64,000 bases of DNA, taken from NCBI RefSeq assembly GCF_009914755.1, contig NC_060937.1; one strand, given 5' to 3'. The notes beneath the pieces were generated by a model. That model saw only the letters and a program-made list of their open reading frames with translations, was not told the origin of the DNA and searched no databases. The position numbers were made by a program, and so were the translations under genes. Shown piece after piece: positions 3,718-10,103 of this stretch. The stretch's first letter is position 1; each line of letters starts with the position of its first letter. Origin of the DNA: the human T2T-CHM13v2.0 reference genome, Homo sapiens.

Positions 3718-4937
3718 CAGTCATACTTCAGAGACACTGCAGGTTCTGGATGCAAAATCTCTGAAGTATGACTGCAGATAAAGCAACAAAACAAATATTG
3801 CAATAAAGCAAATATTGCAATAATGATAGCCACACTTTTTTTGTTTCTCAGTGTATATAAAACTTAGGTTTACACTATACTGTAGTCTAGTAAATGTGCA
3901 ATAGCATTATTTTATGGATAAATATGCCAACAAGCATGGTCATCTGAGTCTTCAGTGAGTCCTGAGTTTTTGTTGGTGGAGGACTTGTCTCAATGTTGAT
4001 GACTACTGTCTAATAAGGATGGTGGTTGCTGAAGGTTGAAATGGCTGAGGTAATTTTTAAAATAAAGCAATGAAGTTTGTCCCATTGACTGACTCTCCAT
4101 TTCATGAAAAATGTATCATGCACTGCTACTTGATAGCATTTTACCCAGAGTAGAACTTCTTTCAAAATTGGAGTCAATCCTCTCAAACCCTGCACTGCTT
4201 TATCAATGAAGTTTACGTAATATTCTAAATGCTTTGTTGTCATTTTAACAATGTTCATAAAATCTTCATTGGTTAGATTCCATCTCAAGAAATCACTTTC
4301 TTTACTCACCCCTAATATGCAACTCCTTGTCATTTCAAGTTTCATAATGAGATTGCAGCAAATCAGGCGCATTTTCAGGATCTAATTCCTAATTCCGGTT
4401 CTCTTGCTATTTCCACCACACTGCAGTCACTTTCTCCATTGAAGTCTGAACACCCCAAAGTCCTCCATGAAGATTGGAATCAACTTCTTCCAAACTCCTG
4501 TCAATATTGATATTTTGAACTACACCTATGAATCACCAATGTTCTTAATGGCATCTAGAATGGTGAATCTGTTCCAGAAAATTTTCGATTTACTTTTCCT
4601 AAATCTGTCAGAGGAATCACTATCTATGGCAGCCATAGTAATATGAAATGTCTTTCTATAATAAAACTTGAACATCAAAATTACTCCTTGATCCATGAAC
4701 TATGGAATAACTGGGGTGTGAGCTAGCATGAAATCAGCACTGACCTCCTTGTATATCTCCATCAGAGCTCTTACGGGACCAGGTGATGTGAATGAACAAT
4801 AATATTTTGAAAGGAATCTTTTATTTGGGGCCGCATGTCTCAAAATATTTAGTCAACCATGCTGTAGATCAATGTGCTGTTATCCAGACATGGCTCTTCC
4901 ATTTTAGAGCACAGGCAGAGTAGATTTATCATAATTC
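3718..4937 (-). mobile_element. Tigger1 DNA transposon, part 1 (TIR plus transposase C-terminal relic)
   Basis: TA then cagtcatacttcagagacactgcaggttc (diverged Tigger1 TIR); 'tacactatactgtagtcta'; ORF 4010..4372 encodes Tigger1-like peptide (IVKMTTKHLEYYVNFIDKA). Confidence 0.9.
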
Positions 4938-7900
4938 CTTTTTTAAAAATTACATTTTAGATTGAGGGGATACATGCACTTGTTGTTCACCTGAGTATAT
5001 TGCATAATGCTGAGGTTCAGGGTCCAAATGACCCTGTCACCCAGGTACTGAGCATAGGACTCAATAGATGATAGCTTTTCAAGGCTTTTTATCCCTCTTT
5101 CCCCTCCCTCCTCTACTAGTCCCCAGCTTCTATTGTTCCCATCTTTATGTAGATGAGTATTCAATCTTTAGCTCCAACTTATGAGAACATGCAGTATTTG
5201 CTTTTCTTTTCCTGTGTTAATTTGCTTAGGATAATGGTCTCCAGCTGCATCCATGTTGCTGGCAAGAATATGATCTCATTCTTTTTTATGGCTGCATAGT
5301 ATTCCATGGTGGTATGTACCACATGTGCTTTTCACAATCCACTGTTTATTGGCATCAAGATTGAATCCATGTCTTTGTTATTGTGAGTAGTGCTATGACG
5401 AACATATGAGTGCAGAATCTTTTTATTAGAAAGAGGTGTTTTATTTTGACTATATACCTGGTAATGGGATTGCTGTGTTAAATAGCAGTTTTAACTTTTT
5501 GAGAAATCTCCAAACTGCTTTCCAAAATGGCTGGATTAATTTACCTTCCCACTGGCAGTGTATAAGCATCCCCTTTACCCCACAGCATTGCCAACATCTA
5601 TTGTTTTTTGACTTTGTAGTAATGGCTATTCTGACTGGTGTGACATGGTATCTCATTGTGGTTTTGAATTGAGTTTCTTTGATAATTAGTGACATGGAGC
5701 ATTTTTTCATATTTGTTGGCTACTTGTTTATCTTCCTTTGAAAAGTGTCTGTTCAGTTTTTTTAGTCCATTTTTTTAATGGAGTCATTTGGGTTTTGCTT
5801 ATTGGTTCGTTATGGATTGTGGATATTAGACCTTTGTTGAATGTGTATTTTGCAAGTATTTTCTTTTTCATTTTGCTAGGTTGTCTGCTTACTCTACTGA
5901 TAGCTTCCCTTGCTGTGCAGAGGCTCTTTAGTTTAATTAGGTCCCGCTTGTCAATTTTTGTTTTTGTTGCAGTTGGTTTTGAGGAATTAGTCATAAATTC
6001 TTTCTCAAGACTTATGTCCAGAATGGTGTTTTTCTTAGATTTTCTTATAGGATTCTTATAGTTTAAGGTCTTACATTTAAATCTTTAATCTATCTTGAAT
6101 TAATTGTTGTATATCGTAAAAAGAAGGGTTCTAGTTTCATTCTTCTGCATGTGGCTAGCCAGCTGACCCAGCATCACTTATCGAATAGAAAATACTTTCC
6201 CCATTGCTTATTTTTTGTTAGCTTTCTTAAAAATCAGATGGCCATAGATGTGTGGCTTTATTTCTGGGTTCTCTATTCTGTTCCATTGGTCTATGTGTCT
6301 GTTTTTGTACCAGTACCATGCTGTTTGGGTTACTGTTGCCTTGTAGTGTAGTTTGAAGTCAGGTAATGTGATGCTTCCAACTTTGTTCTTTTTGCTTAGG
6401 ATGGCATTGACTATATGAGATAATTTTTGATTTCATACAAACTTTAAAATAGTATTTTCCAGTTTTGTGAAAATGATGTTGGTAGTTTGATAGGATAACT
6501 TTGTATCTGTAGATTCCTTTGGGTAGTTTGACCATTTTAATGATACTGATTTGTTTATGTCATTTTTTATTTCTTTTAGGAGTGTTTTGTAGTTATCCTC
6601 ACAGAATATTCTACCTCCTTGGTTAGATGTATTCTGAGGTATTTTATTTGTGTGTGTATGGCTATTGTAAATGAGACTGTGTTCCTGACTGGGCTCTCAG
6701 TTTGAATGTTATTGGTTTATAGAAAAGTTACTAATTTTTATACATTGGTTTTATATCGTGAAACTTTACTGAATTTGTTTATCAGTTTCAGGAGTCTTTT
6801 GATGGAGACTTCAGGGTTTTCTAGTTATAGAATCATTTCATCCATGAACATAGACACTTTGAATTCTTCTCTTCCTATTTTAATGCCTTTTATTTATTTT
6901 TGTTGCATGATTGCTGTGGCTAGCACATCCAGTACTATTTTAAATAGGAGTGATGAGATGGACATCCTTGTCTTGTTTCAGTCTTCAATAGGAACACTTA
7001 CTTCCCAGTTTTGCCTGTTCAGTCTGATGTTGACTGTGGTTTTGTCATAGACAGCTCATTATTTTAAGGAATGTTTCTTGGATGTTTAGTCTGTTGAGAG
7101 CTTTTATCATTAGGGAATGTTGGATTTATTAAAAGCTTTTTTTTCTGTGTCTATTGAGATGATCATATGGTTTTTGTTTATAATTGTTTTTATGTGATGA
7201 ATCATATTTATTGATTTCTGTATGTTAAACCAACTTTGCAACCCAGGAATGAAGCCTACTTGTTCTTGGTGAATAAGTTTTGATATGTTGTTTGCATTTG
7301 ATTTGCTAGTTATTTTGTAGAGAATTTTTGTATCTATATTCATCAGAGATACTTGCCTGTAATTTTCTTATTTTTGTGGGTGACTGCCAGGCTTTGGTAT
7401 CAGAGTGATGCTTGCTTTCTAGAATGAATTACAGAGAAGTCCTTCCTCCTTAATTCTTTAGAATAGTTTCAGTATAGATGATGCCAGATCTTCTTTGTAA
7501 ATCTGTTAGAATATGACGGTGAATCCCTCTTTGTCTGTTTTTTTTTTTTTTTTTTGGTTGACTTTTTTTTATTACTGATTGAATTTTAGAACTCAATATT
7601 GGTCTGTTCAGTGTTTCAATTTCTTCTTAATTCAATCTTGGAAGATTGTATGTTTCTAGGAATTTATACATTTTCTCTAGATTTTCTAATTTGTGTTCAT
7701 AGAGGGGTCCATAACAGTCTCTGAGGAACATTTTCATTTCTGTGGCATTGCTTGTAATGCCACCTTTGTTGTTTCTGATTATCCTTGTGTGGATCTCTGT
7801 TCTTTTTCTTTGATAATTTAGTTAGTGGTCTATCAATATTGTTTATTCTTTTAAAAATGGCTTTTGCTTTTGTTCATTTTTTGTATGGATTTTTGGGTTT

Positions 7901-9219: not shown

Positions 9220-9316
9220 AAAAATATGGAACTAATTTGTGAATCATCCTTGCTCAGGGGTCATACTAATCTATGTATCATTTCAATTTTATTATATGTG
9301 CTGCCGAAATGAGCAT
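9220..9316 (-). pseudogene. U6 snRNA retrocopy (RNU6-type pseudogene) fused to L1
   Basis: Minus strand reads atgctcatttcggcagcacatataataaaattgaaatgatacatagattagtatgacccctgagcaaggatgattcacaaattagttccatattttt, colinear with U6 (GTGCTCGCTTCGGCAGCACATATACTAAAATTGGAACGATAC...GTTCCATATTTTT) apart from two short deletions. Confidence 0.95.
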
Positions 9317-10103
9317 GATTTAGCATAGTTCATAAAAGCCGTAGGATTTTTGAAATGGTAAATAAGCATTGGATTCAACTTTAAGTCCCCAGCTGCTTTA
9401 GATCCTAACAAGAGAATCAGCCTGCTTTTTGAAGTTTTGAAGTGTGGCACTGAGTTTTCCTCTCTAACTATGAAAGTCTTAGATGGCATCTTCTTTCAAT
9501 ATAAGGCTGCTTTGTCTACACTGAAAATCTGTTATTTAGTGTAGCCACCTTCATTCATTATCTCATATATTTTGTATAACTTGTTGCAGTTTCTGTATCA
9601 GCACTTTCTATCTCAACTTGCATTTTATGTTATAGAGATGGCTTCATTCATTAAACCTCATGAACCAACTTCTGCTAACTTCATTTGTTTGTGTGTGTGT
9701 GTGTGTGTGTGTGTGTGTGTGTGTGTGTGTGTGTAGGCAGCTTTCTTACCTTTCTAGGCCTTCATAAAATTGAAAAAAATTAAGCCCTGGCTTTGGATTA
9801 GGCTTTGGCTTGAGGGAATGTTGTGCCTGGTTAAATCTTTTATCCAGACCCCTAAATCTTTCTCCATATCAGCGATAAGGCAATTACACTTTATCATTTA
9901 TATGTCCATGTAAGTAGCAATTTTAATTACCTTCAAAACCTTTGCCATTGCATTTACAACATGACTAACTGTTTAGCACATCCTTTCAGCCTGTCTCAGT
10001 TTTCAACATGCCTTCCTTGCTAACATTAATCATGTTCACTTTTGATTTAAAATGTGATAACTATGACTCCTCCTCCCTTTTAAACACTTAAAAGCTATTG
10101 TAA
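9317..10103 (-). mobile_element. Tigger1, part 2 (continuation; far end missing)
   Basis: Resumes where part 1 stops; ORF 9292..9489 [45 protein letters not shown] is pogo/Tigger DDE transposase sequence. Confidence 0.9.
9690..9734. repeat. (TG)n microsatellite
   Basis: about 22 uninterrupted TG/GT units. Confidence 0.97.

What the first reader, a model, noticed from the sequence alone, without database searches (positions are those of the whole stretch)
4923..9331. U6 snRNA/LINE-1 chimeric retrocopy carrying essentially all of ORF2, nested in Tigger1
Seen: on the minus strand a near full-length U6 copy (9316-9220) ends in five T residues and joins L1 directly. A single 15-bp TSD (gatttatcataattc 4923-4937 / gatttagcatagttc 9317-9331, 13/15) encloses U6 plus L1, and Tigger1 resumes on the other side, so this was one insertion. 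Known: U6/L1 chimeras are a described class, attributed to RtcB ligation of the U6 3' end to L1 RNA or to template switching. Unusual here: the L1 part is ~4 kb and the junction lies in the inter-ORF spacer a few tens of nt upstream of the ORF2 start, so U6 replaces the 5'UTR and ORF1. The L1 belongs to an old subfamily. Inference: the join marks a cleavage or ligation site in the spacer, and the chimeric RNA may have encoded its own ORF2p.
Basis: partly seen in the sequence, partly recalled or inferred. Interest (0 to 1): 0.85.

Follow-up and report, generated by a model that had tools for sequence, protein, structure and literature searches.

The report
Old U6/LINE-1 chimeric retrocopy, ordinary kind
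This is a real but decayed copy of U6 spliceosomal RNA fused to about 4 kb of an ancient LINE-1 element, inserted as one piece into an older DNA transposon; it belongs to a well-described class, and its long LINE-1 part is not unusual.

Summary
A full-length U6 copy lies at 9316..9220 on the minus strand (Rfam RF00026, 65.5 bits, E 2.8e-15). It ends in five T and runs straight into LINE-1 at 9219.

The L1 part (9219..4938, 4011 bp once a later Alu is removed) is colinear with full-length relatives and covers ORF2 end to end. The join lies 34 nt before the first ORF2 codon, in the middle of the 68-69 nt inter-ORF spacer.

One 15-17 bp target-site duplication encloses U6 plus L1. In 9 of 11 other copies of the host Tigger-like transposon the two flanks overlap by exactly those 15 bp. 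U6 divergence (15.5%) and L1 divergence (about 0.15) agree.

So this was one LINE-1-mediated insertion of a U6/L1 hybrid template, a known class. The locus is absent from the 180-row U6/L1 catalogue of Law and Burns. However, 23 of those 180 rows carry 4 kb or more of L1, so its length is not unusual. No other U6 is joined at this spacer position.

The idea that the chimeric RNA encoded its own ORF2p is not needed and is disfavoured. Interest is low.

The parts
9317..9331 (-). 5' target-site duplication copy (GAACTATGCTAAATC); host Tigger-like sequence
9220..9316 (-). U6 snRNA retrocopy (RNU6-67P). It is full length at both ends and ends in five T, has internal 3-nt and 7-nt deletions, and is 84.5% identical to a near-canonical U6
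9186..9219 (-). L1 inter-ORF spacer, its 3' 34 nt; the U6/L1 junction lies between 9220 and 9219 (give or take 2 nt)
9103..9185 (-). L1 ORF2 remnant, the first 20-odd codons. The codon aligned with the ATG of relatives is ACA at 9185-9183. The last 16 nt (9118-9103) are the 5' copy of the Alu's own TSD
8848..9102 (-). Later Alu insertion (255 bp with A-tail). It has its own 16-bp TSD: AAAAGGCACAGAGTGG at 9118-9103 and AAAAGGCACACAGTGG at 8847-8832
   Evidence: sequence; Metazoa_SRP match 8985-9101; the L1 alignment resumes at 8847-8845
5167..8847 (-). L1 ORF2 remnant, rest of the frame to about the last codon. It includes the endonuclease region (ORF2p residues 35-78 at 8811-8650), RVT_1 at 7367-7113, and the C-terminal region (residues 1228-1270 at 5331-5182). 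The aligned pieces contain 48 stop codons in total (some pieces overlap), and the frame changes between pieces
4945..5166 (-). L1 3'UTR (about 220 nt). It aligns with the 3' ends of relatives L024-L027 but not with the L1PA2 or L1PA8A copies
4938..4944 (-). Remnant A-tail: six A (4944-4939) and one G (4938)
4923..4937 (-). 3' target-site duplication copy (GAATTATGATAAATC)
9317..10114 (-). Upstream half of the host Tigger-like DNA transposon (transposase DDE_1 region)
3799..4937 (-). Downstream half of the host Tigger-like DNA transposon

Best explanation
A single LINE-1 target-primed reverse transcription event, tens of millions of years ago, copied a hybrid template into a Tigger-type DNA transposon. 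The template was full-length U6 snRNA joined through its oligo-U 3' end to an L1 RNA fragment. That fragment began in the middle of the inter-ORF spacer and ran through ORF2 and the 3'UTR to the poly(A) tail.

The endonuclease nicked at TT/AAGA and left a 15-17 bp target-site duplication. The hybrid most likely arose before reverse transcription. In that route the L1 RNA, already translated and bound by its ORF2p, is cut by an unknown ribonuclease, and an RtcB-type ligase joins the U6 2',3'-cyclic phosphate end to the new 5'-OH.

Shown here: the anatomy, the single event, the junction position, and the equal age of the two halves. Inferred from the literature: ligation rather than template switching.

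The copy has since decayed. It has many stops and frame changes, deletions in U6, and an Alu inserted near ORF2 codon 22. It has no evident function.

My odds: single-event chimera 0.95 or more; ligation-first route about 0.6 of that.
For: - U6 is full length and in sense orientation. Five T are joined directly to L1 with no A-run between. This matches the 5 to 7 T described for genomic U6/L1 pseudogenes (Moldovan 2019 passages).
- The L1 is colinear with full-length relatives from 9217 to 4932-4957 apart from the Alu. ORF2 is covered from residue 24 to the last-but-one residue by tblastn. Residues 35-78 and 1228-1270 match solved ORF2p.
- Empty-site reconstruction: in 9 of 11 other Tigger-like copies the two window flanks overlap by exactly 15 bp on uninterrupted sequence reading GAATTATGCTAAATC or a near variant. 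Most are preceded by TTAA, which gives a TT/AAGA nick site. Of the other two copies, one has an insertion there and one gave no downstream match.
- The 5' TSD has its best downstream match exactly at the L1 3' end.
- Equal age: U6 has 15 of 97 mismatches, and the L1 star-tree branch is 0.150.
- The class, its features and both mechanisms are in print.
Against: - The A-tail is only six A plus a G, and the TSD copies differ at 2 of 15. Both are expected at this age but weaken the hallmarks.
- At the join the window reads AC where 8 of 8 relatives read AA. So one mutated or untemplated base cannot be told apart, and the junction is known only to within 2 nt.
- Nothing in the sequence separates ligation from template switching.
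- No orthologous primate locus could be examined, so co-arrival of U6 and L1 rests on the TSD and on equal divergence.
- The window L1 branch (0.150) is longer than those of its four relatives (0.090-0.126), which is unexplained.
Confidence: 0.6

Rival explanations
1. The insertion was the same single event, but the hybrid was made during reverse transcription. The L1 reverse transcriptase reached the 5' end of a broken L1 RNA in the spacer and switched template to the 3' end of a free U6 snRNA.
For: This is the older published model (Doucet 2015 passages; still allowed by Moldovan 2019 and by Law and Burns). It predicts the same anatomy seen here: full-length sense U6, no A-tail between the parts, and one TSD.
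Against: There is no microhomology at the join: relatives read CACA before the junction, with no T. Only 1 of 180 catalogued U6/L1 chimeras carries a full-length L1 (6170 bp), although the natural 5' end of the template should be a frequent switching point. Ligation has direct in vitro and cell-extract support (abstract and passages).
Confidence: 0.33
2. There were two independent insertions that happen to abut: a U6 processed pseudogene landed exactly at the 5' end of an existing truncated L1, or the other way round.
Against: U6 has no A-tail and no flanking repeat of its own. The best match of its 5' flank within the next 60 nt is 10 of 15, against 13 of 15 at the far end of the L1. Host Tigger-like homology stops at 9317 and resumes at 4937 with a 15-bp overlap in 9 of 11 relatives. 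The divergence of the two halves is equal.
Confidence: 0.02
3. One reading: because the chimeric RNA kept the whole of ORF2, it was translated and supplied its own ORF2p in cis, which helped it to insert.
For: ORF2 is complete in extent. In the published catalogue, L1 lengths show a second mode at 4-5 kb: 20 rows, against 11 at 3-4 kb and 2 at 5-6 kb. That is what a premium on an intact ORF2 would give.
Against: - The excess is not significant (one-sided binomial 0.075; 0.092 after dropping three paralogous duplicates).
- 157 of 180 catalogued chimeras lack a complete ORF2 and still inserted.
- The published model has ORF2p bound before cleavage.
- ORF2p translation from L1 RNA is reported to need completion of an upstream ORF, and that ORF is missing here.
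- U6 is not an m7G-capped RNA (recalled, not from a call).
- In this subfamily the codon at the ORF2 start position is ATG in only 23 of 43 exact-context copies.
Confidence: 0.05

Closest known systems
U6/LINE-1 chimeric pseudogenes (Group IV snRNA pseudogenes of Doucet et al. 2015; Moldovan et al. 2019; 180-row catalogue of Law and Burns, Cell Genomics 2026)
   Same: Full-length sense U6 that ends in oligo-T and is joined directly to a 5'-truncated L1 with poly(A). A single TSD of 6-19 bp. An L1 endonuclease-type target site. An insertion age within the roughly 90 to 30 Myr span in which most accumulated.
   Different: - This locus is not among the six chr13 U6 rows of the catalogue.
- It would also have failed the 97.5% U6 identity filter of Doucet 2015, since it is 84.5% identical.
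- Its junction is in the inter-ORF spacer.
Catalogued long chimeras, such as hg38 chr3:195214894-195219309 (L1PA2, 4416 bp; locus L029) and chr13:75109695-75114316 (L1PA8A, 4628 bp; locus L030)
   Same: U6 followed by an L1 part that retains the whole of ORF2 and the 3'UTR.
   Different: Their junctions lie inside ORF1 (406 nt before the ORF2 start motif in L029), not in the spacer. They are also much younger.
Catalogued chimera hg38 chr3:87742228-87742537 (L1PREC2; locus L028)
   Same: U6 ends in five T and is joined close to the ORF2 start, 6-9 nt before the first ORF2 codons.
   Different: It is not the same position (6-9 nt against 34 nt). Only about 420 nt of L1 follows within the 5 kb fetched.
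Polyadenylated U6 processed pseudogenes (Group II of Doucet et al. 2015)
   Same: A U6 retrocopy flanked by a TSD and made by the L1 machinery.
   Different: Those carry an A-rich tail straight after U6 and have no L1. Here U6 runs directly into L1.

Membership tests
U6/L1 chimeric retropseudogene | [quoted passage not shown] | tested here: met
   RF00026 covers model positions 1-105 of 105 on the minus strand at 9316..9220. L1 homology starts at 9219-9217 on the same strand.
U6/L1 chimeric retropseudogene | U6 ends in an oligo-T tract (4-8 T) joined to L1 with no poly(A) between | tested here: met
   Five T at 9224-9220 are followed at once by L1 spacer sequence. The range of T counts is taken from Moldovan 2019 passages.
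U6/L1 chimeric retropseudogene | The L1 part reaches the L1 3' end and a poly(A) tail | tested here: met
   Relatives align to 4932-4957. Six A remain at 4944-4939, so the tail is short.
U6/L1 chimeric retropseudogene | One target-site duplication encloses U6 plus L1 | tested here: met
   The TSD copies match at 13 of 15. In 9 of 11 host-family relatives the empty site shows exactly 15 bp of overlap between the two flanks.
U6/L1 chimeric retropseudogene | Insertion at an L1 endonuclease-type site (TT/AAAA-like) | tested here: met
   The reconstructed host sequence reads TT/AAGAATT in 8 of the 9 relatives shown (one reads TGAGAATT). The catalogue scores TT/AAGA as an EN motif.
U6/L1 chimeric retropseudogene | U6 and L1 arrive together in cross-species alignments | not testable with these tools
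   No primate genomes or alignments were held. The only proxy is the equal divergence of the two halves.
RtcB-ligated U6/L1 RNA as the template | The join is made between a U6 2',3'-cyclic phosphate end and an L1 5'-OH before reverse transcription | not testable with these tools
   The DNA copy keeps no trace of the RNA end chemistry. The T count is compatible with this route.
   No Dfam or RepeatMasker library was on hand. What was shown is that the L1 is old: branch 0.150; JC distance 0.32 to an L1PA2 copy and 0.31 to an L1PA8A copy; last 200 nt or so not alignable to either.
   DDE_1 gave E 5.1e-4 and 20.1 bits, below the cut-off of 22, on the flank ORF. A sub-threshold mir-1261 match lies at 9789-9873. 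The genome gave 777 candidate relatives, with 40 of 40 scored matching. The family name itself was not tested.

The most novel reading that the evidence does not exclude
U6/L1 chimeras may form a distinct long class that keeps the whole of ORF2 but lacks the 5'UTR. In the published catalogue, 20 of 180 L1 parts measure 4-5 kb, against 11 at 3-4 kb, 2 at 5-6 kb and 1 full length. This uncatalogued locus, joined in the spacer, adds one more. If the pattern is real, there are two readings. Either L1 RNA in the RNP is cut preferentially in the ORF1-to-spacer region, or chimeric RNAs with an intact ORF2 have an insertion advantage.
Probability: 0.12. Interest if true: 0.5.

Novelty: new member of a known kind. 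Interest (0 to 1): 0.15.

Why it matters
In itself it matters little. It is one more decayed member of a class with about 180 catalogued human examples and a published mechanism, and it lies in a gene desert.

It has two small uses. First, it shows that the largest catalogue misses old, diverged chimeras whose first L1 fragment is short because a later Alu split it. Second, it is a clean example of a junction in the inter-ORF spacer.

The wider lead is the 4-5 kb second mode in published L1 lengths. If it held up, it would bear on where L1 RNA is cleaved inside its RNP, or on cis-preference.

Tried and rejected
- PDB search with the 47-aa frame across the junction (9260-9120) found nothing at E up to 1. 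Only 21 residues of it are ORF2. I relied instead on DNA alignment to relatives.
- Pfam on 12 stop-to-stop fragments gave only RVT_1 (E 3.9e-7) and DDE_1 (E 5.1e-4). The other 10 gave nothing.
- Search for other U6 copies joined at the same spacer position:
  - A fixed pattern with up to 3 mismatches found only the window.
  - A 111-nt query across the junction gave 39 L1-only hits and no spanning hit among the 40 scored of 145 candidates.
  - Exact gapped patterns for U6 end plus 0-90 nt plus ORF2 start motif gave 14, 10 and 14 hits, against 8, 7 and 9 for the reversed controls. Only the window and one other true chimera (L028) were among them.
  - These searches have low sensitivity for old copies, so absence is weak evidence.
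- RF00026 over the whole genome scores only the best 48 candidates, so I could not build a census of U6 copies of my own.
- A phrase search for chr13 coordinates in the supplements returned nothing, probably because of the colon. I read the whole table instead.
- Alisch et al. 2006 is not held. Its result is cited only through the passage in PMC4091050.
- A search for print mention of a non-ATG ORF2 start in old L1 subfamilies (terms L1PA, ORF2, ACG, initiation codon) listed 10 of 36 papers, none on L1.
- Comparing the age of the host Tigger with that of the L1 was rejected as uninformative. The Tigger relatives were picked as the best 11 of 777 candidates, which biases their identity upward.
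Full report
**What is there**

Read on the minus strand, the interval has this order:
- host sequence ending in GAACTATGCTAAATC (9331..9317);
- a U6 copy (9316..9220);
- L1 sequence from 9219 to a six-A remnant tail (4944..4939);
- GAATTATGATAAATC (4937..4923), after which host sequence resumes.

Rfam's U6 model matches 9220-9316 at 65.5 bits (gathering score 44), E 2.8e-15, over model positions 1-105 of 105. 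Against a near-canonical genomic U6 (the U6 of locus L029, 107 nt), the copy has 82 of 97 aligned bases identical and two deletions of 3 and 7 nt. It ends CCATATTTTT, that is, in five T.

**The L1 part**

A 201-nt query across the junction found L1 copies whose alignments start at query positions 111-116 in 34 of the 35 L1-part hits (121 in one), which is at the U6/L1 boundary. Other hits covered the U6 part alone, and nothing but the window spanned both.

Four full-length relatives were fetched at 8-9 kb each. They are colinear with the window from 9217 down to 4932-4957. The only large interruption is at 9102-8848. That interruption is an Alu with its own 16-bp TSD, at 9118-9103 and 8847-8832, matching at 15 of 16. 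It also gives the Metazoa_SRP match at 8985-9101. Without the Alu and one copy of its TSD, the L1 part measures 4011 bp.

Several results locate ORF2:
- Solved human ORF2p matches 8811-8650 at residues 35-78 (E 2.7e-15 to the endonuclease chain).
- It matches 5331-5182 at residues 1228-1270 of 1275 (E 1.6e-12).
- Pfam RVT_1 matches 7367-7113.
- tblastn with the three open pieces of the ORF2 of a young L1PA2 copy (L029) covers the window from 8844 to 5170. In terms of the query pieces, this runs from residue 24 of the first piece to residue 348 of 349 of the last. The 12 aligned pieces contain 48 stop codons in total (some pieces overlap), and the frame changes between pieces.
- The first 20-odd codons lie upstream of the Alu at 9185-9120 and are seen in the DNA alignment.

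ORF2 is therefore present from end to end but thoroughly decayed. About 220 nt of 3'UTR follow.

**Where the join lies**

Eight relatives were aligned over the region. They read through the end of ORF1 and then a spacer of 68-69 nt (the ORF1 frame ends ...YLLPQKHT-stop in L004). Next comes the ORF2 start context AACTTC-ATG/ACA-ATAGGATCAAAA.

Window homology begins at 9219 (A), 9218 (C where relatives have A) and 9217 onwards. The codon aligned with the ATG of relatives is ACA at 9185-9183. The junction is therefore 34 nt before the first ORF2 codon and about 35 nt after the ORF1 stop, in the middle of the spacer.

In the L1PA2 copy L029 the spacer is 63 nt, as in the literature (PMC4091050 passage). 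The window's first L1 bases correspond to a point about 33 nt before that ATG. There is no microhomology at the join, and one base (the C at 9218) could be mutated or untemplated.

**One insertion, not two**

A 154-nt query from the upstream flank found 40 matches among 777 candidates. In the 11 relatives fetched, the upstream flank ends and the downstream flank begins on the same uninterrupted sequence, with exactly 15 bp of overlap, in 9 of 11. One relative has an insertion at that point, and one gave no downstream match. The empty site reads GAATTATGCTAAATC or a near variant, and each window copy differs from it at one position.

All 11 relatives align up to 9317 (one to 9316), and 10 of 11 align down to 4937. 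The base pair context TT/AAGAATT gives a nick site one base off the endonuclease consensus. The TSD may be 17 bp, with its first two A merged into the tail.

The 5' 15-mer has its best downstream match (13 of 15) exactly at the L1 3' end, and the next best are 11 of 15. Of 2000 shuffles, 28 gave a match of 13 of 15 or better anywhere in the 4.5 kb. U6 has no A-tail and no repeat of its own.

The divergence of the two halves agrees. U6 has 15 of 97 mismatches. A least-squares star tree on pairwise Jukes-Cantor distances among the window and four relatives gives the window L1 a branch of 0.150, against 0.090-0.126 for the relatives.

The host is a Tigger-type element. A flank ORF gives DDE_1 at E 5.1e-4, below the cut-off, and a sub-threshold mir-1261 match lies at 9789-9873. 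The name Tigger1 itself was not tested.

**How it most likely arose**

The anatomy is that of the published U6/L1 chimeric pseudogenes. Those have full-length sense U6 ending in 5-7 T, a variably 5'-truncated L1, a TSD of 6-19 bp and an endonuclease-type site (Moldovan et al. 2019, abstract and passages; Doucet et al. 2015, passages; Law and Burns, preprint sections 21 and 29).

Two routes are in print. In the first, RtcB ligates the U6 2',3'-cyclic phosphate end to a 5'-OH made by cleavage of L1 RNA that is already in its RNP, and reverse transcription in cis follows. In the second, the template is switched during reverse transcription.

The DNA cannot tell them apart. I favour ligation, at about 0.6 against 0.33, for three reasons:
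- it has direct biochemical support;
- there is no microhomology here;
- only 1 of 180 catalogued chimeras carries a full-length L1, although the true 5' end of the template should be a common switching point.

**Is it unusual?**

I read the whole of Table S2 of Law and Burns (Cell Genomics 2026, supplementary file mmc2.xlsx, five parts).

L1 fragment sums fall as follows:

| Length range | Rows |
|---|---|
| 0-499 bp | 85 |
| 500-999 bp | 24 |
| 3-4 kb | 11 |
| 4-5 kb | 20 |
| 5-6 kb | 2 |
| 6170 bp | 1 |

In all, 23 of 180 rows reach 4,000 bp or more. Two of these that I could place in this assembly keep all of ORF2 and join inside ORF1: L029 (L1PA2, 4416 bp) and L030 (L1PA8A, 4628 bp). A third catalogued chimera (L028, L1PREC2) joins 6-9 nt before the first ORF2 codons. 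A 4-kb L1 part with all of ORF2 is therefore not unusual, and there is no recurrent spacer site. Only the window matches U6 end plus this spacer position at 3 mismatches or fewer.

The locus itself is not in the catalogue. Its six chr13 U6 rows lie at 36.3, 46.4, 49.0, 63.8, 72.7 and 75.1 Mb. The offset seen for the 75.1 Mb row, about 776 kb, puts this locus near hg38 83.31 Mb.

Doucet 2015 kept only U6 copies of at least 97.5% identity, so this one would have been excluded there. RNU6-67P turns up only in three association studies (search listing). Older lists (Buzdin and colleagues, recalled) were not seen.

**The self-encoding idea**

The idea cannot be tested on sequence and is not needed:
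- In the ligation model, ORF2p is made and bound before the RNA is cut.
- ORF2p translation is reported to be independent of its AUG but to require completion of an upstream ORF (PMC4091050 passage citing Alisch 2006). U6 plus half a spacer provides none.
- 157 of 180 catalogued chimeras lack a complete ORF2.

**Leads seen on the way**

1. The 4-5 kb second mode in published lengths is suggestive but not significant (one-sided binomial 0.075; 0.092 after dropping one of each of three paralogous pairs).

2. The genome has 43 exact matches to the ORF2 start context of this subfamily. The codon at the start position is ATG in 23, ACA in 15 (the window among them), ATA in 4 and ACG in 1. Two common variants that differ at both bases of a CpG are the pattern of CpG decay. 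This suggests that the founder did not carry ATG there. I found no mention of this in print with one search, but I could not read Alisch 2006.

**Verdict**

The claim of unusualness is not supported, and the self-encoding inference is disfavoured. This is a new, uncatalogued member of a well-known kind, and interest is low.

Noticed in passing
window 8832-9118: An Alu (9102-8848, minus strand, 255 bp with A-tail) was inserted into the L1 near ORF2 codon 22. It appears to have an internal deletion. Its own 16-bp TSD matches at 15 of 16. It therefore post-dates the chimera, and it splits off a 117-bp first L1 fragment. That split may be why catalogues based on repeat adjacency miss this locus.
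   Followed up: partly
window 9183-9185, and 43 genome sites: In the exact context AACTTC-NNN-ATAGGATCAAAA of this old L1 subfamily, the codon at the ORF2 start position is ATG in 23 copies, ACA in 15, ATA in 4 and ACG in 1. This is the signature of CpG decay and suggests that the founder did not have ATG at that position.
   Followed up: partly
Law and Burns 2026, Table S2, U6 sheet: The L1 lengths of the 180 catalogued U6/L1 chimeras are not monotonic: 11 at 3-4 kb, 20 at 4-5 kb, 2 at 5-6 kb and 1 full length. The long class therefore keeps ORF2 and part of ORF1 but almost never the 5'UTR. The one-sided binomial test for 4-5 kb against 3-4 kb gives 0.075 (0.092 after deduplication).
   Followed up: partly
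L028 (G000:C3:87813300-87818700), junction at C3:87818433-87818459 minus: A catalogued U6/L1PREC2 chimera is joined 6-9 nt before the first ORF2 codons. Only about 420 nt of L1 follows within the 5 kb fetched, so the rest of that L1 is deleted or displaced.
   Followed up: partly
window 9789-9873 (+) and 9619-9765 (+): Two sub-threshold Rfam matches lie inside the Tigger-like flank: mir-1261 (58.4 bits against a gathering score of 91, E 6.5e-10) and SCARNA7 (23.7 bits, E 0.012). The first probably reflects a transposon-derived hairpin. The second is probably chance.
   Followed up: no
window 4944-8845 against L024-L027: The window L1 has a longer star-tree branch (0.150) than its four relatives (0.090-0.126). 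It may belong to a somewhat different or older subfamily, or it may lie in a faster-mutating region.
   Followed up: no
L029 (G000:C3:197912600-197917400): The catalogued L1PA2 chimera has an ORF2 open in three long pieces of 296, 650 and 349 aa, so it is broken at only two places. Its U6 differs from the other top-scoring U6 copies by little (117.8 bits against 118.8).
   Followed up: no
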